This document shows, piece after piece, positions 1 through 6,439 of a DNA stretch of 19,193 bases (the stretch's first letter is position 1; each line of letters begins with the position of its first letter). The stretch is from a virus (taxonomy: Duplodnaviria; Heunggongvirae; Uroviricota; Caudoviricetes): the IMG/VR virus record IMGVR_UViG_3300043119_000318; one strand, written 5' to 3'. The translations under genes and the position numbers were made by a program. The notes below the pieces were generated by a model. That model saw only the letters and a program-made list of their open reading frames with translations. It did not search any database and was not told where the DNA came from.

Positions 1-72
1 AGCGGGTGTTGGATTCGAACCAACGATGCTCCTGGCTTATGAGACCGGAGTAGTGACCAGACCTTACCCGCA
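1..72 (-). tRNA. tRNA-Met(CAT), initiator-like; 3' end runs off the window
   Basis: CTCATAA anticodon loop, GTTCGAATC T-loop, xGCGGG 5' end with a 1:72 mismatch as in tRNA-fMet; the D-arm is weak and the anticodon stem lacks the full three G-C pairs. Confidence 0.8.
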
Positions 73-80
73 ACATTGAA

Positions 81-248
81 TTTGTAAGTAGCAGCGCCTC
101 TCTCATTCGCTACCATTTCGCCCTGTATACGTTAGGGTTAGAGGTACGTAGTAATAGTTGATACATGTTTGTTACCGTGTTGTCGGACTCGAACCGTAAA
201 CTCACATAGTTTTCGAGGCTATGCTTTCTCAACATCTACACTTACAAA
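81..248 (-). ncRNA. Candidate structured RNA in a tRNA spacer
   Basis: 9-bp closing inverted repeat (81-89/240-248); interior holds a CATAG/CTATG hairpin and a GGTTCGAGTCC T-loop-like hairpin. Confidence 0.45.
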
Positions 249-251
249 ACT

Positions 252-326
252 TGGCGACTCGTGGGAGAATCGAACTCCCATAATCGGATAGACAATCCGA
301 AGTAATAACCTTTATACGAACGAGCC
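252..326 (-). tRNA. tRNA-Asp(GTC)
   Basis: Cloverleaf, TCGGA-TTGTCTA-TCCGA anticodon arm, encoded CCA. Confidence 0.93.
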
Positions 327-333
327 ATAAACT

Positions 334-418
334 TGGTGGAGATTACTGGGATCGAACCAGTCGTGCCCGAGGGCGGCGGATTTACAGTCCACTGCATCAC
401 CATTGATGCTTCATCTCC
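334..418 (-). tRNA. tRNA-Tyr(GTA)
   Basis: GTGGA-CTGTAAA-TCCGC anticodon arm, long variable arm, CCA. Confidence 0.95.
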
Positions 419-430
419 ATTAAATACAAC

Positions 431-495
431 AGGATAGTGTTGTCGACTAAGACAATCCAATTTGAGTAGTCTGTATAATTTGCAGAAACTATCCT
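431..495 (-). ncRNA. tRNA-spacer motif copy A (AGGATNN...NNATCCT with TTWCWGCAAA)
   Basis: AGGATAG/CTATCCT stem followed by TTTCTGCAAA; same layout at 3995-4102 and 4600-4658. Confidence 0.7.
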
Positions 496-503
496 AAAAA
501 CTG

Positions 504-580
504 TGGTCCGAGTAGTAGGATTCGAACCTACGACCTCCTGCTCCCAAAGCAGATGCGCTACCAGACTGCGCTACACTCGG
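504..580 (-). tRNA. tRNA-Pro(TGG)
   Basis: Canonical cloverleaf, TTTGGGA loop, CCA. Confidence 0.96.
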
Positions 581-590
581 ATTGAAAACT

Positions 591-665
591 TGGTGCGTCG
601 TGAAAGAGTCAAACTTTCTTCTCGCCGGTTAAGAGCCGGGACTTCATCATCAAAGTTTACAACGC
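591..665 (-). tRNA. tRNA-Lys(CTT), atypical
   Basis: CTCTTAA loop, GCGTTGT/ACGACGC acceptor, CCA; T-loop is TTTGACT and the D-loop lacks GG. Confidence 0.8.
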
Positions 666-670
666 ATATT

Positions 671-745
671 TGGTGGACCGACGGGGGATCGAACCCCGAC
701 TAAAGGCTTGCAAAGCCCCTGTGCTCCCATTATCACTATCAGCCC
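671..745 (-). tRNA. tRNA-Ala(TGC)
   Basis: TTTGCAA loop, G3:U70 identity pair, A73, CCA. Confidence 0.93.
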
Positions 746-752
746 AAAATTC

Positions 753-828
753 TGGTACTCCGTGGGGGAATCGAACCCCTCGTTTCCGCCTTGAAAGGGC
801 AGCGTCCTAACCGTTAGACGAACAGAGC
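753..828 (-). tRNA. tRNA-Glu(TTC)
   Basis: CTGCC-CTTTCAA-GGCGG arm, CCA. Confidence 0.95.
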
Positions 829-833
829 ATAAC

Positions 834-861
834 GGATGTTTTTGTGTGAGGAAAAACATCC
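834..861 (-). other. 10-bp hairpin just 5' of tRNA-Glu (processing signal or degenerate spacer motif)
   Basis: GGATGTTTTT/AAAAACATCC perfect inverted repeat followed by GTT; no U-tract. Confidence 0.5.
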
Positions 862-915
862 AAACCTTCTTAGTGCCTCAGGCTTCCGACTTTACGTAAA
901 GACTCAGAGAGGGCT

Positions 916-1146
916 TCAGAAATCTTCGCCAGCGTAACCGTAATCTTCATCGGTTCCAAAACCAGCAGAAGCCATTGCAGAATCATGATCACCGTCCATT
1001 GATTCATCATAGCTAGAATCCATCGCATCAGCAATTGCTTCAACATCAGCCAAGCTAACATTAAAGCGATCAGCGATCTCGTCAAAATCATCGCCAAGCT
1101 CAATAGATTCTTGGATGTCAATAACCAGGTTTTTCATCATTCCCAT
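916..1146 (-). CDS. Small, very acidic hypothetical protein (76 aa)
   Basis: AGGAG RBS, directly downstream of the promoter at 1174-1202; 22 D/E residues. Confidence 0.8.
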   Translation of the reverse strand: MGMMKNLVIDIQESIELGDDFDEIADRFNVSLADVEAIADAMDSSYDESMDGDHDSAMASAGFGTDEDYGYAGEDF

Positions 1147-1173
1147 ATAAGCTCCTAATCAACCTAAGCACCT

Positions 1174-1202
1174 ATTTTACTACAGAAGCGAATTAAAGTC
1201 AA
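1174..1202 (-). promoter_or_regulatory. Sigma70-type early promoter
   Basis: TTGACT-17 nt-TAAAAT. Confidence 0.85.
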
Positions 1203-1257
1203 GCACTTCGTAGCAACTAACCAACAACATCAACTTCTTCACTCAACCTAAGCACCT

Positions 1258-1286
1258 ATTTTACTACAGAAGCGAATTAAAGTCAA
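1258..1286 (-). promoter_or_regulatory. Sigma70-type early promoter
   Basis: TTGACT-17 nt-TAAAAT. Confidence 0.85.
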
Positions 1287-1297
1287 GCACTAATTTT

Positions 1298-1375
1298 TGG
1301 AGTACAAGGTGAGATTCGAACTCACGACTTTACGGATTTGCAATCCGTTGCATTTGACCACTCTGCCACTCGTAC
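1298..1375 (-). tRNA. tRNA-Cys(GCA)
   Basis: ACGGA-TTGCAAA-TCCGT arm, U73, CCA. Confidence 0.95.
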
Positions 1376-1386
1376 ATACATTTCTA

Positions 1387-1464
1387 TGGTGGGCTCCCCG
1401 AGAGTCGAACTCGGCACCAACGAATTATGAGTTCGCTGCTCTAACCAACATGAGCTAGAAGCCC
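1387..1464 (-). tRNA. tRNA-Ile2(CAT), lysidine type
   Basis: CTCATAA loop in an ileX-like body with A73; elongator Met is not excluded. Confidence 0.8.
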
Positions 1465-1471
1465 ATCAATC

Positions 1472-1547
1472 TGGTCCGGCGTAAGGGAATCGAACCCCTA
1501 TTCGTGCTTTAGAAGAGCACTGTATTAATCCATTATACGAACGCCAG
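1472..1547 (-). tRNA. tRNA-Arg(TCT)
   Basis: GTGCT-CTTCTAA-AGCAC arm, CCA. Confidence 0.93.
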
Positions 1548-1556
1548 AAAATTCTT

Positions 1557-1640
1557 TGGTGCGAGAGGCGGGACTCGAACCCGCATGCCTTTCGGCGGGA
1601 GATTTTAAGTCTCCTGTGGCTGCCATTACACCACTCTCGC
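1557..1640 (-). tRNA. tRNA-Leu(TAA)
   Basis: GGAGA-CTTAAAA-TCTCC arm, long variable arm, CCA. Confidence 0.95.
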
Positions 1641-1652
1641 TTTCATACAGCT

Positions 1653-1681
1653 ATTATACATGAGACTTGATTTAAAGTCAA
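1653..1681 (-). promoter_or_regulatory. Sigma70-type early promoter inside the tRNA array
   Basis: TTGACT-17 nt-TATAAT. Confidence 0.85.
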
Positions 1682-1690
1682 GCACATCTT

Positions 1691-1767
1691 TGGTGCCCCA
1701 GGTGGGACTCGAACCCACAAAATCTTGATTTTGAGTCAAGCACGTATACCAATTCCGTCACCAGGGC
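1691..1767 (-). tRNA. tRNA-Leu(CAA) with a short variable loop
   Basis: CTTGA-CTCAAAA-TCAAG arm, 5-nt variable loop, CCA. Confidence 0.9.
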
Positions 1768-1772
1768 ATATA

Positions 1773-1864
1773 TGGTACCTCGACCGAGAATCGAACTCGG
1801 ATGAACCAATTATCTGTTGCTTACGGGATATAAATCCGCCGTTTTACCGTTAAACTATCGAGGT
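1773..1864 (-). tRNA. tRNA-Ile(TAT) with a long variable region
   Basis: TTTATAT loop, ACCTCGA/TCGAGGT acceptor, about 22-nt variable region, CCA. Confidence 0.75.
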
Positions 1865-1872
1865 ATACTTCT

Positions 1873-1962
1873 TGGCGGAGAGTAAGCGGATCGAACGCTT
1901 GCACCGATTACTCAGTGGTCTTGGTTTAGCAAACCAGCACATTGCCACTCTGTCAACTCTCC
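1873..1962 (-). tRNA. tRNA-Ser(GCT)
   Basis: TTGCTAA loop, long variable arm, G73, CCA. Confidence 0.94.
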
Positions 1963-2325
1963 ATAAACTTCACTACCATATAACGTAGTTTCTTTTTTAC
2001 CTTCCATAGATTTAACAGGAATATACACAACTTTATTATCGTCTGCCATATATACTGCCCATCCATCGATTAAACTACGATCTATTTCAATTTTTTTAGA
2101 ATTAACTATGGAAAACGCTCCAAGATTGTATGTGTTGCCTTTGTTCTTTTTTACAGTGGCTTGACGATACTTTATCTGAATCCTGAATGTTTTTCCAGTT
2201 TTATCCATCGCTATAACATCCACAGGAGAATGATCATCGAATGCATTAAATACATAATAACCATTGCTCTGTAGATCGTCAATTACTTTAATTAAACCAC
2301 GGACACCCTTTTCGTTAGTATTCAT
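1912..2325 (-). CDS. PD-(D/E)XK endonuclease, I-Ssp6803I/PDDEXK_5-like, free-standing homing endonuclease candidate
   Basis: KGVRG..KVI.DL...GY.VF...DDHSP.DVIA...RIQIK pattern; AAGGAG RBS; late promoter; last 17 codons overlap tRNA-Ser. Confidence 0.75.
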   Translation of the reverse strand: MNTNEKGVRGLIKVIDDLQSNGYYVFNAFDDHSPVDVIAMDKTGKTFRIQIKYRQATVKKNKGNTYNLGAFSIVNSKKIEIDRSLIDGWAVYMADDNKVVYIPVKSMEGKKETTLYGSEVYGELTEWQCAGLLNQDH

Positions 2326-2354
2326 ACTGTTTCTCCTTATAATTAGTATACATC

Positions 2355-2362
2355 TATTTATA
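2355..2362 (-). promoter_or_regulatory. T4-type late promoter
   Basis: TATAAATA about 30 nt upstream of the endonuclease start. Confidence 0.75.
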
Positions 2363-2474
2363 AAAATAACAGTTTACGAAACCGTAATCCTCCTAAATTT
2401 GGCTCCGTCTTACTGAAACGATATCAGTTATTCTAACTCGGGAGAACGGAAGCACCGAGATCATCTTCCAATTC

Positions 2475-3054
2475 TTACATCACTGGACCATTACCGTTCT
2501 TGAAACCCACGGTACCACCCTGTTCTTTGATACGCTTAATTACGTCTTCAAATAAGATAGGGCGAAAATCTGTTTGTTCAACGCAAACACAGAAGTAACG
2601 CGGATCGATAATCTCACCCATTTCCTTGTCGTCAAACATAACACGATTGGTATGTAAGTGACCATGAATGTTAGTACCGAAACGATATAATTGTCTTGGA
2701 TGCAGAGGGATATGAGTTAAAATCATACCGTTCATCACATGACTACCACGAATGTCTCTGAAGTATTGAGTATATTCCTCTAACTTGAAGATGTCATGGT
2801 TACCCTTGATCAGAACCTTGTCACCATTTAACCGGCTCATAATACTTAACGACTTGCGGTTAATGACAACGTCACCTAAGTGATAAACCTTGTCGTTTGG
2901 CTTGACGGTTTCGTTCCATCGCTTGACCATTTCCTCATCCATTTCTTCTGGATCAGTCCACGGTCGAATCTTAGTCACTCCGTCTGCCTCAGTGAATCTG
3001 CATACTCCACTATGCCCGAAAGTGTGTGTCAGATACTAAAAATACTGCTGGCAT
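2475..3054 (-). CDS. Calcineurin-like metallophosphoesterase interrupted by a +1 frameshift near codon 12
   Basis: GGAGG RBS and ATG at 3054 give MPAVFLVSDTHF; removing one T at 3019-3021 continues FGHSGVCRF into the 2475-2978 frame with HLGD, GNHD and HGHLH motifs. Confidence 0.85.
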
Positions 3055-3161
3055 GTGACTTCCTCCTATAATCATTAGCAGAGAATCGATCACCGTTTCT
3101 CCATTTGTTAATCAACGAAAGAACAAGTTCTTGTTCTTCCCATTCATATTCATATGTTTCT

Positions 3162-3190
3162 ATTCTACTACACAATTCATCAAAAGTCAA
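3162..3190 (-). promoter_or_regulatory. Sigma70-type promoter upstream of the phosphoesterase
   Basis: TTGACT-17 nt-TAGAAT. Confidence 0.65.
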
Positions 3191-3216
3191 GACCCATCTG
3201 AAGTATGCGAAGATAC

Positions 3217-3843
3217 TTAATTTATCACTCTACCACGACGCCAACCATCAGGAATTTCGTGTAGTTTATTGATCTTTTTGTTTTCCAAACCATCGGTTAT
3301 CCACATAGTTCCGAACTGCGAATTTTTATCTTTACTATGTTTTTCCAATGCGCTATAGCGCATTTTTTGTTTAGTTTCGTCAGAATGTTTACGCCCAAGA
3401 AACCTTTGATTACCAAGATTAGATTGACTGTTTTTACTTTTAGAATCTTCAGAATGTTTACGTCCGTACATAGGACTATTTGGATATTTTTCTTTCAATC
3501 GCAAAGACATCTTTAAGTAATGGTCAGCAGAATGTGTCGGATTTTCCTTCCAAGCATTTAGATAATCAAACCCACCATATCCACCTAGCTTTAGATTGTA
3601 TGTATTTTCTTCAGCAAGGAATTCATCATTAACAATCTCAGCTTCTTTTGCGTACATAAGTTCTGGAGTATCAAAAACAAAAAGAATTTCTTTGGTAAAA
3701 TTTTCTATACCATGCTTCTCTTGAGAGTATTTAAGATACTTTCCAGAACCCATATAATTGTCATTCAAATCTTTGGTTTTATGTGATCCAATATAGATCT
3801 TACCATTGATTCGATTCGTTATTTTATAAACAGTATAGTACAT
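3217..3843 (-). CDS. GIY-YIG homing endonuclease (Seg-like) with NUMOD3-type repeats
   Basis: YTVYKITN..NGKIYIG and YMGSG motifs; two GRKHS(E/D) repeats; GGAGG RBS. Confidence 0.9.
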   Translation of the reverse strand: MYYTVYKITNRINGKIYIGSHKTKDLNDNYMGSGKYLKYSQEKHGIENFTKEILFVFDTPELMYAKEAEIVNDEFLAEENTYNLKLGGYGGFDYLNAWKENPTHSADHYLKMSLRLKEKYPNSPMYGRKHSEDSKSKNSQSNLGNQRFLGRKHSDETKQKMRYSALEKHSKDKNSQFGTMWITDGLENKKINKLHEIPDGWRRGRVIN

Positions 3844-3861
3844 AGTTTCCTCCTATGTAAC

Positions 3862-3869
3862 TATTTATA
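3862..3869 (-). promoter_or_regulatory. T4-type late promoter
   Basis: TATAAATA upstream of the GIY-YIG gene. Confidence 0.75.
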
Positions 3870-3899
3870 AAAGTTCGAGTCTTGACATCAACTCAAGGG

Positions 3900-3984
3900 A
3901 GGAAGCGGTGAGATTCGAACTCACGGACCCTTTCGAGTCGGCTGCTTTCTAGACAGATACAATAGACCACTCTGCCACGCTTCC
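3900..3984 (-). tRNA. tRNA-Ser(AGA), atypical, no encoded CCA
   Basis: Ser-type body (GGAAGCG/CGCTTCC, long variable arm), CTAGAAA loop; U73 followed by CCC. Confidence 0.7.
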
Positions 3985-3994
3985 ATTGAATAAC

Positions 3995-4102
3995 AGGATA
4001 CTTTCTTCGTCTGCTCTACCGAATGAGCTATTCGCGCTATTGCGTGAAACTGGAGTCGAACCAGTTACCTAACGTTTGAGTTAGTTTTGCTGTAAGTATC
4101 CT
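3995..4102 (-). ncRNA. tRNA-spacer motif copy B enclosing a circularly permuted tRNA
   Basis: AGGATAC/GTATCCT stem plus TTACAGCAAA; tRNA 3' half (4042-4075) lies upstream of the 5' half (4007-4037). Confidence 0.8.
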
Positions 4103-4108
4103 AAAACT

Positions 4109-4194
4109 TGGTGAAGTGAGTAGGGATCGAACCTACCTGCACCGAAGTGCCACTGGGTTACAGCCAGCTAGAACACCATTGTTCCATTCACTCC
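4109..4194 (-). tRNA. tRNA-Tyr(GTA), second copy
   Basis: GCTGG-CTGTAAC-CCAGT arm, long variable arm, CCA. Confidence 0.92.
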
Positions 4195-4200
4195 ATAATT

Positions 4201-4292
4201 TGGCGGAAAGCAGAGGAGTCGAACCCCATCCCATTTCTGAGAACCCAGTTTTCAAGGCTGGTCGCAGGACCAACCCCGCTGCATTACTTTCC
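4201..4292 (-). tRNA. tRNA-Ser(TGA)
   Basis: CTTGAAA loop, long variable arm, G73, CCA. Confidence 0.9.
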
Positions 4293-4299
4293 ATTTGTT

Positions 4300-4376
4300 T
4301 GGTGCGTCCTGAGGAATTCGAATCCCCAACCTCTGAGTTCGTAGCCCAGTGCACTATCCAGTTGTGCTAAAGACGC
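4300..4376 (-). tRNA. tRNA-Arg(ACG)
   Basis: CTGGG-CTACGAA-CTCAG arm, CCA. Confidence 0.93.
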
Positions 4377-4382
4377 GAAATT

Positions 4383-4457
4383 TGGTACCTCGTGACGGGT
4401 TCGAACCGCCGACCTTCTCCTTGTAAGGGAGACACTCTACCGCTGAGTTAACGAGGC
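4383..4457 (-). tRNA. tRNA-Val(TAC)
   Basis: TCTCC-CTTACAA-GGAGA arm, CCA. Confidence 0.95.
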
Positions 4458-4508
4458 ATAGGTGACTGATTACTTATCTCATTGTACGCCATCAGTCAAG
4501 GCGATATT

Positions 4509-4587
4509 TGGCTCCGCATCTGGGTAACGATCCCAGCTAAACATTGATTAACAGTCAAGCCCATGCACCATGCTCGGGTTCTGCGGA
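4509..4587 (-). tRNA. tRNA-Asn(GTT)
   Basis: CTGTTAA loop, U1 and G73, CCA; non-canonical ATCGTTA T-loop. Confidence 0.85.
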
Positions 4588-4599
4588 ATTGAAAATAAC

Positions 4600-4658
4600 A
4601 GGATCAACTTTTTAGTTTCTGGATAAAAGAAAGTTTTTAAGTTTGCTGAAATGATCCT
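4600..4658 (-). ncRNA. tRNA-spacer motif copy C
   Basis: AGGATCA/TGATCCT stem plus TTTCAGCAAA. Confidence 0.7.
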
Positions 4659-4663
4659 AAAAC

Positions 4664-4737
4664 TGGAGCGGGATGCGAGAATCGAACTCGCAACTTCAAC
4701 TTGGAAGGATGACGTTTTACCACTAAACTAATCCCGC
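4664..4737 (-). tRNA. tRNA-Gly(TCC)
   Basis: CTTCCAA loop, U73, CCA. Confidence 0.95.
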
Positions 4738-4744
4738 ATAAATC

Positions 4745-4779
4745 TGGTTCCCAGTAGAGGTAACGATCCTCTGTCTTAC
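4745..4779 (-). pseudogene. Orphan 3' half of a tRNA (partner of 5476-5510)
   Basis: AGAGG-ATCGTTA-CCTCT T-arm, ACTGGGA acceptor strand, ACCA end. Confidence 0.8.
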
Positions 4780-4787
4780 TAATCTAC

Positions 4788-4862
4788 TGGTAGAAGATGT
4801 TGGTAACGATCCAACCTCTGTGCCTTATCAAGACACTGCTAATCCGTCTCAGCTAATCTCCC
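4788..4862 (-). tRNA. tRNA-Ile(GAT)
   Basis: GTGTC-TTGATAA-GGCAC arm, A73, CCA; ATCGTTA T-loop. Confidence 0.88.
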
Positions 4863-5441
4863 AATATATTCTTTAGATAGCTGGTGTTCCAGAAGAACAA
4901 ACAATCTAACAGAGTTTTGCTCAATGACCTTTCTTATCTTTTCTTCGTCATGTTTTGCTTTATAGCTATTCTTTGGGTCAAGCCAGATATCTAAATCTGG
5001 AAGATAAAAATCTGCAAAGTAATTCCTATTATCATATTTCAACGCTTTAGGTCTAATCCATTTTATACCAAGTTCATTTAAAATCTCACTACACCTAAAT
5101 TCATAAGAACTTTGAAGTGTAGTTTCTTTTCCAAACGAGTCAATAACTCGAAACTTCTTCGAGTTACCAGCGTTTTCTCTATAACCACCGAACCCTTGCT
5201 TTTTAGCATTTTCTGATCTTTCTTCGGTAGACCAAGCTGCTGCCCCACCTCTTTTCCAGTTAGATCTGTCATATACTGGCGGCTCAATACACAATGATTT
5301 TGATTTTGTGTATTGATTACTACCCTTCTTACCTAACATTCCATTTTTATATTCCCTGTTTGCATTTTTAGGACACCTTAATTCATGATTTTTATGTGAC
5401 CTTTTGTTGCAATCTTTACTACAGTATTTACAAATAAACAT
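4839..5441 (-). CDS. Putative homing endonuclease: N-terminal Zn finger plus PD-(D/E)XK (TnsA-N/Vsr-like) domain
   Basis: CKYC..HELRC zinc motif; LQSSYE and YFADFYLPDLDIWLDPKN motifs; GGAGG RBS; stop codon lies inside tRNA-Ile. Confidence 0.75.
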   Translation of the reverse strand: MFICKYCSKDCNKRSHKNHELRCPKNANREYKNGMLGKKGSNQYTKSKSLCIEPPVYDRSNWKRGGAAAWSTEERSENAKKQGFGGYRENAGNSKKFRVIDSFGKETTLQSSYEFRCSEILNELGIKWIRPKALKYDNRNYFADFYLPDLDIWLDPKNSYKAKHDEEKIRKVIEQNSVRLFVLLEHQLSKEYIGRLAETD

Positions 5442-5460
5442 AGTTGTTTCCTCCTATATC

Positions 5461-5468
5461 TATTTATA
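5461..5468 (-). promoter_or_regulatory. T4-type late promoter
   Basis: TATAAATA 20 nt upstream of the endonuclease start. Confidence 0.75.
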
Positions 5469-5475
5469 AAAATAA

Positions 5476-5510
5476 ATCAGTCGTATGCTCTACCTTTGAG
5501 CTAACCGGGA
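5476..5510 (-). pseudogene. Orphan 5' half of tRNA-Ile(GAT), ending at the anticodon
   Basis: TCCCGGT-TA-GCTC-AAAGGTA-GAGC-A-TACGA-CT-GAT; the acceptor strand pairs 7/7 with 4745-4779. Confidence 0.8.
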
Positions 5511-5515
5511 ATTAT

Positions 5516-5591
5516 TGGTGCAACCTGCAGGGATCGAACCTGCTTCAATGGCTCTTCAAACCACCGCTATGACCACATCAGCTAAAGTTGC
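5516..5591 (-). tRNA. tRNA-Phe(GAA)
   Basis: TTGAAGA loop, GCAACTT/AGGTTGC acceptor, CCA. Confidence 0.92.
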
Positions 5592-5605
5592 ATAAAATTC
5601 TTAGG

Positions 5606-5676
5606 GGTGACTAATGGGAGTTGAACCCATACAAAGAGAATCACAATCTCTGATGCTACCGCTACATCATAGTCAC
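5606..5676 (-). tRNA. tRNA-His(GTG), no encoded G-1 or CCA
   Basis: AGAGA-TTGTGAT-TCTCT arm, C73; position -1 is U and the 3' end reads CCU. Confidence 0.85.
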
Positions 5677-5691
5677 ACCTAAGAACTCGTT

Positions 5692-5755
5692 TGGTAGGAG
5701 CAGAGGGATTCGAACCCTCGACCAACGGATTAAAAGTCCGCTGCGCCATACTCCC
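5692..5755 (-). pseudogene. tRNA-Lys(TTT) lacking the D-arm (64 nt)
   Basis: Intact acceptor, anticodon and T arms and CCA, but only 7 nt (TGGCGCA) between acceptor and anticodon stems. Confidence 0.8.
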
Positions 5756-5756
5756 A

Positions 5757-5846
5757 TATTAAAACACACTATAGCTTCCTCTTGAGGCTTGCTAGACATT
5801 TTGCTTCGTAGCACTGAGCCTTGTACTCAGATAATATGTTTTAATA
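5757..5846 (-). ncRNA. Candidate multi-branch structured RNA
   Basis: 10-bp closing inverted repeat TATTAAAACA/TGTTTTAATA enclosing three hairpins. Confidence 0.45.
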
Positions 5847-5922
5847 TGGCACCCCCTGATGGATTCGAACCACCGCATGTCGGAATCAAAATCCGATGCC
5901 TTACCAGCTTGGCTAAGAGGGT
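5847..5922 (-). tRNA. tRNA-Gln(TTG)
   Basis: TCGGA-TTTTGAT-TCCGA arm, G73, CCA. Confidence 0.94.
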
Positions 5923-5926
5923 ACAT

Positions 5927-5952
5927 AGACTGACTACCGAAGCAGTCAGTCT
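5927..5952 (-). other. 11-bp C(UUCG)G hairpin just 5' of the first tRNA
   Basis: AGACTGACTGC-TTCG-GTAGTCAGTCT, no U-tract; probably a stabilising or processing hairpin. Confidence 0.65.
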
Positions 5953-6020: not shown

Positions 6021-6049
6021 ATTTTACTTCAAACCTGAATTAAAGTCAA
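6021..6049 (-). promoter_or_regulatory. Sigma70-type early promoter for the tRNA array
   Basis: TTGACT-17 nt-TAAAAT. Confidence 0.85.
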
Positions 6050-6107
6050 GCACTTCTTTCAAGCTAAGCGAAGAACAGAACAACCTCTTCACTCAACCTA
6101 AGCACCT

Positions 6108-6136
6108 ATTTTACTTCAGAAGTGAATTAAAGTAAA
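6108..6136 (-). promoter_or_regulatory. Early promoter (TTTACT variant) for the tRNA array
   Basis: TTTACT-17 nt-TAAAAT, near-identical context to 1258-1286. Confidence 0.8.
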
Positions 6137-6410: not shown

Positions 6411-6439
6411 ATTATACAGCGATTTTCGTTTAAAGTCAA
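6411..6439 (-). promoter_or_regulatory. Sigma70-type promoter driving the leader
   Basis: TTGACT-17 nt-TATAAT; the -35 box contains the TGA stop of the deaminase. Confidence 0.85.

What the first reader, a model, noticed from the sequence alone, without database searches (positions are those of the whole stretch)
431..4658. Repeated tRNA-spacer RNA motif with visible covariation (three copies)
Copies at 431-495, 3995-4102 and 4600-4658 share the minus-strand layout TTTT-AGGATNN-TTWCWGCAAA-[variable]-NNATCCT-GTT. The NN pairs covary (AG/CT, AC/GT, CA/TG), which directly supports the stem. Each starts 6-8 nt after a tRNA CCA and ends 10-13 nt before the next tRNA. The interiors differ completely (short hairpins in A and C, a permuted tRNA in B), so the motif behaves like a cassette frame. 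It could be a processing, cleavage or circularisation signal. The hairpin at 834-861 (GGATGT/ACATCC-GTT) may be a degenerate fourth copy. It may match an existing Rfam aquatic-metagenome motif such as freshwater-2 (from memory, unverified).
Basis: partly seen in the sequence, partly recalled or inferred. Interest (0 to 1): 0.72.

Follow-up and report, generated by a model that had tools for sequence, protein, structure and literature searches.

The report
Phage Y-like RNAs with CAGCAA handle
The three look-alike stretches between this phage's tRNA genes are genes for small RNAs of a widespread family that I found in neither Rfam nor the searchable papers; the family travels with a ring-shaped, Ro60-like RNA-binding protein, so they are probably that protein's partner RNAs, carrying tRNA look-alike parts.

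Summary
The three copies (430-495, 3994-4102, 4599-4658, minus strand) are real. The two variable stem pairs still pair in 178/181 and 169/181 relatives. The hairpin at 834-861 is not a fourth copy, and no Rfam family reaches its threshold (freshwater-2 never appears).

The processing, ribozyme or circularisation reading is not supported. Each copy is a small RNA gene in a tRNA slot: a 7-bp closing stem plus an unpaired NNWC(A/U)GCAA handle, around a swappable cargo. Copy B carries a YrlA-like permuted tRNA elbow, C an anticodon-sized hairpin, A a pseudoknot.

The family tracks a DUF2828+DUF7788 gene whose predicted fold is Ro60 (Z 20.2). Of 50 independently picked records, 4/4 with the gene carry the motif, against 1/46 without. 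tRNA arrays of T4, T5, S-PM2 and Bxz1 lack it. E. coli phage Bas63 has four copies behind gp130, a Ro60-like anti-defence gene whose Y RNAs were guessed but not identified.

Most likely this is a new branch of the Ro60/Y-RNA particle. Binding and expression are untested, and the gene lies outside this window. The scan found this family before on other DNA.

The parts
430..496 (-). Copy A: handle RNA gene (7-bp closing stem plus U.G pair, handle UUUCUGCAA at 488-480) with pseudoknot-type cargo
   Evidence: CM 41.6 bits; stem pair probabilities about 1.0
440..471 (-). Copy A cargo: S1 GACUA (471-467) with UAGUC (449-445); S2 UUGUC (455-451) with GACAA (444-440)
   Evidence: S1 varies with compensation in relatives (GCTA/TAGC, GCGA/TCGC, GAACA/TGTTC, GATCA/TGATC, ACCAA/TTGGT); S2 compensated in L329 (TGAC/GTCA)
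3994..4103 (-). Copy B: handle RNA gene (handle UUACAGCAA at 4095-4087) with YrlA-like permuted tRNA cargo
   Evidence: CM 42.0 bits; YrlA model positions 23-89 match at 30.7 bits, below the gathering score of 69
4013..4065 (-). Copy B cargo: T-arm 4065-4049, closed 7-bp acceptor-like helix with 4-nt loop 4048-4031 (6/7 paired, no CCA), D-arm 4028-4013
   Evidence: read from sequence; Rfam alignment; relatives at 72-76% identity
4599..4659 (-). Copy C: handle RNA gene (handle UUUCAGCAA at 4651-4643) with anticodon-arm-sized hairpin 4632-4616 (5 bp, 7-nt loop UUUAUCC; U33 kept, position 37 is C rather than a purine)
   Evidence: CM 63.7 bits; relatives up to 97% identical; weak Dictyostelium Class I RNA match, 19.8 bits against 41.5
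504..580 (-). tRNA-Pro(TGG), upstream neighbour of copy A; tRNA at 337-418 follows the copy
4109..4194 (-). tRNA-Tyr(GTA), upstream neighbour of copy B; tRNA at 3898-3984 follows the copy
4664..4737 (-). tRNA-Gly(TCC), upstream neighbour of copy C; a tRNA-Asn(GTT) at about 4510-4587, missed by ARAGORN and Rfam, follows the copy
   Evidence: tRNA-Asn read directly from sequence
834..861 (-). Plain 10-11-bp hairpin; NOT a member (no handle)

Best explanation
Each copy is a small non-coding RNA gene in a tRNA-sized slot of the phage's polycistronic tRNA array (shown). It is probably cut out by the same processing that frees the neighbouring tRNAs (inferred from tRNA-like spacers). Its two ends pair into a 7-bp stem whose sequence is free but whose pairing is kept (shown). 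The adjacent unpaired NNWC(A/C/U)GCAA is fixed in sequence (shown). Stem plus handle is most likely the binding site of a phage Ro60-fold protein, DUF2828+DUF7788 (inferred from two-way co-occurrence, same strand and fold; binding not tested). The interior is a swappable cargo: anticodon arms, T/D elbows, whole tRNA bodies, pseudoknots (shown). The RNA would then work like a bacterial Y RNA: the handle docks on the ring and the cargo presents a tRNA mimic to host enzymes. The likeliest purpose is counter-defence: protein-stabilised tRNA decoys or tethers against tRNA- or nucleic-acid-attacking defences (inferred; about 0.45 on its own).
For: RNA to protein: the commonest protein near 119 motif loci is a ~470-aa DUF2828+DUF7788 protein (32 loci, always same strand, often 25-250 nt away); it is in 33/49 mostly partial records and 4/4 complete ones. 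Protein to RNA: 62/80 viral DUF2828 loci carry the strict 5' half, 106 sense and 0 antisense; the general frame gives 216 sense against 5 antisense in viral loci and 45 against 1 in genome loci. Independent set chosen by an unrelated 76-aa ORF: 4/4 gene-positive and 1/46 gene-negative records carry it, Fisher p 2e-5. Cultured phages: present in all 15 DUF2828-positive genomes examined except Lak-B6 (only +/-20 kb read); absent from the arrays of T4, T5, S-PM2 and Bxz1. Fold: AlphaFold model pLDDT 79; the top 13 Foldseek hits are all Ro60/Rsr/TROVE; VIA Z 20.2, rmsd 4.1, 407 residues aligned to 1YVP, best non-Ro hit Z 11.2. Cargo: 53/183 non-redundant short copies carry a YU-NNN-R anticodon-type loop, against 4.0 in shuffles. 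UUU, UGU, GUU and GUA make up 24/54, against 12.5% of phage tRNAs; the first three are the PARIS targets (PMC12409363). Bas63 gp130 is this protein (E 5.7e-142); PhageMaP reports it as Ro60-like and a counter to the ppl defence (10.1101/2024.10.10.617714), and four copies lie 0.3-1.1 kb behind it.
Against: The DUF2828 gene is not in this window and no genome is held; its place about 2-3 kb beyond the left end is inferred from L355 and L368. The Ro60 likeness rests on a predicted model at 12-17% identity. The canonical Ro-binding motif GNCGAAN0-1G is absent. The exact AriB cleavage context is not enriched in the anticodon cargos (1/9 for UUU), and AU-richness may inflate the anticodon bias. Related phages are not independent samples.
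Confidence: 0.75

Rival explanations
1. Same RNA-protein particle, different job: the RNA tethers the ring to a host ribonuclease such as PNPase (a RYPER-like machine) or gates its central hole, steering RNA decay or repair in infection. The tRNA mimicry then serves stability or docking rather than decoying. This competes only with the purpose, not the partnership.
For: This is the established role of bacterial Y RNAs (PMC4201824). Thermus phage phiLo Ro60 and its Y-like RNAs bind host PNPase (PMC12135203). Copy B has the YrlA architecture.
Against: It does not explain the many distinct anticodon-arm cargos or up to 8 different copies per genome.
Confidence: 0.35
2. The frame is a cis signal for processing the tRNA transcript (a nuclease site or spacer structure).
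For: Most copies abut a tRNA: 5-6 nt after a CCA and 8-11 nt before the next tRNA.
Against: Absent from arrays of 8-32 tRNAs in phages without DUF2828. Present in tandem next to the gene with no tRNA (L253). The spacers equal ordinary tRNA-tRNA spacers. The interiors are conserved in classes, which a mere signal would not need.
Confidence: 0.06
3. The frame is a self-cleaving ribozyme, or a splicing or circularisation signal that turns permuted halves into mature tRNAs.
For: Copy B and at least 62 relatives have the 3' tRNA half before the 5' half; 3 of 62 even carry 7 nt + discriminator + CCA in register.
Against: No ribozyme family matches. Most copies have no tRNA halves. Copy B has no anticodon loop and no CCA, and the linker between T- and D-arms ranges from 4 to 34 nt. 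The dependence on DUF2828 is unexplained.
Confidence: 0.05
4. The frame acts as DNA: a recombination or mobility site that shuffles cassettes within tRNA arrays.
For: Cargos differ at the equivalent slot in close relatives (the slot after tRNA-Gly in L329 against copy C); tandem arrays exist.
Against: Strict strand bias with transcription, a U.G closing pair (50/70), T- and D-loop cargos, and a partner with an RNA-binding fold; no recombinase recurs nearby.
Confidence: 0.03

Closest known systems
YrlA/YrlB bacterial and phage Y RNAs bound by Ro60/Rsr (Rfam RF02553; Chen et al. 2014, PMC4201824)
   Same: Ends paired into a basal stem with a conserved 5'-side motif; permuted tRNA domain in the order T-arm, closed acceptor, D-arm (copy B); several RNAs per genome, on the strand of a Ro60-fold gene; co-transcription with tRNAs.
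   Different: Handle is NNWCAGCAA, not GNCGAAN0-1G. The partner is DUF2828+DUF7788, not Pfam TROVE (0/28 metagenomic records and 0/15 cultured DUF2828 phages). Scores are far below gathering (30.7 bits here, at most 44.7, against 69). Cargos include anticodon arms, whole tRNA bodies and pseudoknots.
Thermus phage phiLo Ro60 with Yrl1/Yrl2 (PMC12135203; PDB 9KOP, 9L5Y)
   Same: Phage-encoded Ro60 ring with adjacent small RNAs; structural match to the DUF2828 model (Z 14.7).
   Different: Those RNAs use the CGAA motif; protein identity is only 14-17%.
Bas63 gp130 / Felixounavirus Ro60-like protein (PhageMaP, 10.1101/2024.10.10.617714); 'Ro-like RNA binding protein' of cluster L mycobacteriophages (GenBank)
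   Same: Same protein family; its Ro60 likeness is already noted; counters the ppl defence.
   Different: The authors only guessed that some annotated tRNAs might be Y RNAs. The handle RNAs lie between the annotated tRNAs and are not annotated.
Dictyostelid Class I RNAs (Rfam RF01414; Kjellin et al. 2021, PMC7919456)
   Same: About 60 nt; short end-to-end stem kept by compensation; ends AAG and CUGU; an 11-nt motif beside the 5' stem with invariant C, C, A, A matching the handle; variable interior. It is the best non-tRNA Rfam match of short copies (19.8-28.8 bits).
   Different: Below gathering (41.5); one extra base between stem and handle; eukaryotic, DUSE promoter, described as unique to Dictyostelia and bound by Rnp1A. 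A DUF2828 partner in amoebae was not tested.

Membership tests
YrlA (RF02553) | Rfam gathering score of 69 bits | tested here: not met
   Copy B 30.7 bits, model positions 23-89 only; best relatives 39.8-44.7
YrlA (RF02553) | GNCGAAN0-1G Ro-binding motif near the 5' end | tested here: not met
   5' consensus is stem + NNWCAGCAA
YrlA (RF02553) | tRNA-like domain in the order T-arm, acceptor stem-loop, D-arm | tested here: met
   Copy B only; 54 long relatives have T before D
Y RNA in the broad sense | Long stem joining the 5' and 3' ends, with a conserved protein-binding motif beside it | tested here: met
Y RNA in the broad sense | Encoded with a Ro60 orthologue, same strand | tested here: inconclusive
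   Pfam TROVE absent; a Ro60-fold DUF2828 gene co-occurs across the family but is outside this window
Y RNA in the broad sense | Physically bound and stabilised by the Ro60 protein | not testable with these tools
   needs pull-down or gel shift
freshwater-2 or any other Rfam motif | cmscan match at gathering score | tested here: not met
   Only tRNA passes in the window and in 13 motif loci; freshwater-2 is not listed at E<=10. I did not check its accession separately.
Dictyostelid Class I RNA (RF01414) | Gathering score of 41.5 bits | tested here: not met
   19.8 bits for copy C; up to 28.8 in relatives
Dictyostelid Class I RNA (RF01414) | End-to-end stem, adjacent motif with invariant C6, C9, A10, A11, CUGU end | tested here: met
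   (register differs by one base)
Self-cleaving ribozymes | Match to a known catalytic core, or self-cleavage | tested here: inconclusive
   No Rfam ribozyme match; cleavage not testable here
Circularly permuted tRNA genes | Both halves with anticodon loop and CCA-ready 3' end | tested here: not met
   Copy B lacks an anticodon loop and CCA; 3 of 62 relatives have CCA in register

The most novel reading that the evidence does not exclude
DUF2828 proteins and CAGCAA-handle RNAs form a second, unrecognised Ro60/Y-RNA lineage. Phages use it as a modular display platform, with one protein-bound handle and many swappable tRNA-mimic cargos, to neutralise host defences. The orphan Class I RNAs of social amoebae are its eukaryotic members, which would give both those RNAs and the uncharacterised plant DUF2828 proteins a partner.
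Probability: 0.3. Interest if true: 0.9.

Novelty: new variant of a known kind. Interest (0 to 1): 0.72.

Why it matters
It names concrete candidate RNA partners for a protein found in 710 cultured-phage records and at least 7,989 sequence clusters. These include Felix O1-like, KVP40-like, Listeria, Campylobacter and cluster L mycobacterial phages. In E. coli phage Bas63 the protein is already shown to counter a defence system, and knockout tools exist, so the four unannotated RNAs located here (MZ501086 at about 82072, 82239, 82694, 82781) make the question directly testable. It also suggests that phage tRNA arrays hold more than tRNAs, and offers a testable partner for the unexplained Class I RNAs of Dictyostelium.

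Tried and rejected
- Whole genome of the window: not held.
- Looking for a contig that extends the window leftwards: only 1.6-4.6 kb contigs; exact patterns from copies A and B found nothing in IMG/VR.
- Pfam TROVE as the partner: none in motif-bearing records. This first argued against a Y-RNA reading, until the DUF2828 fold was tested.
- Sequence search of the PDB with the DUF2828 profile: nothing; only fold searches show Ro60.
- AriB-specific decoy test (kept U36-AAUC context): not enriched after removing redundancy.
- Hairpin 834-861 as a fourth copy: rejected.
- Integron attC-like site: considered by eye and rejected, because the required AAC...GTT order is absent.
- Literature: no paper for freshwater-2 with tRNA, none on DUF2828 as an RNA binder, none describing this handle. 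The Weinberg 2017 supplement and the Sim 2020 review were not held, so a prior description cannot be excluded.
- Atlas searches gave only phage DUF2828 clusters and could not test for an amoebal homologue.
- Pair counts on alignment A2 are circular, because rows were picked for pairing; one search is the unbiased test.
Full report
CONTEXT. The window is part of a T4-like phage genome: RNase H, ribonucleotide reductase, ThyX, dCMP deaminase and GIY-YIG genes. It has a minus-strand tRNA array over about 1-5,950 and repeated sigma70-like promoters. No whole genome is held.

OBSERVATION. Each has a 7-bp closing stem plus a U.G pair, with predicted pair probabilities of 0.98-1.0 for six of the seven pairs. 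Gaps after the preceding CCA are 8, 6 and 5 nt, and 10-13 nt to the next tRNA, like ordinary tRNA-tRNA spacers in this array. A model built from 70 relatives, excluding the window, finds exactly these three at 41.6-63.7 bits and nothing else above 10.6; the 834-861 hairpin is not scored.

FAMILY. The two NN positions, which the pattern left free, pair in 178/181 and 169/181 copies. Near the partner gene the whole stem varies while pairing is kept, and only C-x-G-C-A-A is fixed. Rfam has no family at threshold. The only informative sub-threshold matches are YrlA for the interior of copy B and Dictyostelium Class I RNA for short copies.

CARGO. Interiors fall into conserved classes. (i) Anticodon-arm hairpins: 53/183 non-redundant short copies have a YU-NNN-R loop, against 4.0 in shuffles; copy C has this size but C at position 37. 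(ii) A pseudoknot class, which includes copy A, with compensated S1 and S2 (L329). (iii) YrlA-like T-arm, closed acceptor, D-arm, which includes copy B. (iv) Whole D-anticodon-T bodies (L093, L042, L368) and longer forms up to about 230 nt. A close relative has a different cargo in the slot after tRNA-Gly.

PARTNER. Pfam TROVE was absent from 28 motif-bearing records. Clustering all ORFs near the motif put a ~470-aa DUF2828+DUF7788 protein first, always on the same strand and often within 250 nt. It is in 33/49 records and 4/4 complete ones. Starting from the protein, 62/80 viral loci carry the strict handle, 106 sense and 0 antisense. In 50 records picked by an unrelated 76-aa ORF, 4/4 with the gene and 1/46 without have the motif (p 2e-5; the records are not fully independent). 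Cultured phages with the gene carry handle RNAs: Felix O1, Bas63, KVP40, Aeh1, GAP32 (8 copies in a tRNA cluster about 200 kb from the gene), LP-125, NCTC12673, FADO, S-CoN_Ph8, BUCT-ZZ01, D491s, S13, RSP15 and a cluster L mycobacteriophage. T4, T5, S-PM2 and the TROVE-type Bxz1 gave only 5 scattered pattern hits in 641 kb and no model hits. Lak-B6, the most divergent, had none within 20 kb. The predicted structure matches Ro60 over its whole length. The gene is not in this window. In L355 and L368 it lies 3.0-3.6 kb downstream of the same 76-aa ORF, which here would be beyond base 1; this is inference.

MECHANISM. Shown: RNA-type structure, fixed handle, modular tRNA-mimic cargo, tight genetic linkage to a Ro60-fold gene. 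From established knowledge: Ro60 rings bind Y RNAs at a basal stem with a 5'-side motif, YrlA carries a permuted tRNA domain, and M. smegmatis YrlA is cut by RNase P and gains CCA. Inferred: the RNAs are released by tRNA processing, the handle binds the DUF2828 ring, and the cargo engages host tRNA-recognising enzymes. The purpose is least certain. For counter-defence: Bas63 gp130, confirmed here as this protein, counters the ppl system, and the commonest displayed anticodons are UUU, UGU and GUU, the PARIS targets. Against a specific decoy role: the AriB cut context is not enriched. A PNPase-tether role, as for phiLo Ro60, remains a close rival.

COMPARISON AND NOVELTY. It works like a Y RNA but fails membership of YrlA (motif, score, TROVE partner). 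The protein's Ro60 likeness is already noted in GenBank annotations and in PhageMaP, whose authors guessed that Y RNAs hide among the tRNA genes but did not identify any. I found no paper describing this handle, though two relevant sources were not held. The likeness to Class I RNAs of social amoebae is striking but sub-threshold and untested for homology. The scan's own notes report this family on many other genomes; these are AI notes and are not counted as evidence.

VERDICT. Real, widespread and apparently undescribed: a new variant of the Ro60/Y-RNA kind. Interest 0.72.

Noticed in passing
window 75-250 (-): A second, unrelated conserved element of about 175 nt in a tRNA slot: terminal stem, a T-arm-like hairpin and an invariant core; 69-89% identical in L073, L122, L002, L128, L009, L170, L196, L046; no CAGCAA handle; no Rfam match.
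   Followed up: partly
window 5476-5509 and 4745-4785 (-): A tRNA split at its anticodon loop: the 5' half (acceptor TCCCGGT, D-arm) and the 3' half (T-arm, ACTGGGA, CCA) pair 7/7 but are separated by a 200-aa ORF (4839-5441, no Pfam hit) and a complete tRNA-Ile(GAT) at 4788-4862. It looks like an endonuclease-type insertion with a replacement tRNA.
   Followed up: no
window 1174-1286, 6021-6136, 1653-1681, 3162-3190, 6411-6439 (-): Repeated promoter cassette TTGACT-17-TA(A/T/G)AAT, in tandem copies at 1174-1286 and 6021-6136.
   Followed up: no
window about 1-72, 586-662, 4202-4292, 4510-4587 (-): tRNA genes missed by ARAGORN, some with non-canonical T-loops (GATC in place of GTTC), for example tRNA-Asn(GTT) after copy C.
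   Followed up: no
L092 389-511, L107, L085, L120 6254-6389: A minority of long copies encode the 3' acceptor strand, a discriminator and CCA followed by a linker and the 5' half, so they could be opened and aminoacylated like M. smegmatis YrlA.
   Followed up: partly
L073 8276, L355 12612, L368 13524, L203 3969: A conserved long class of handle RNA (about 200-230 nt) sits just upstream of the DUF2828 gene.
   Followed up: no
L231 4240-4891, L232 4475-4873, L242 4620-4999, L207-L214: Handle RNAs in tandem next to DUF2828 genes in Firmicutes and Chloroflexi genome bins; whether these are chromosomal or prophage was not checked.
   Followed up: no
L252 7848-9428: The Aeh1 record notes similarity of its DUF2828 protein to Arabidopsis T31B5.30, so plants have a relative whose RNA partner is unknown.
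   Followed up: no
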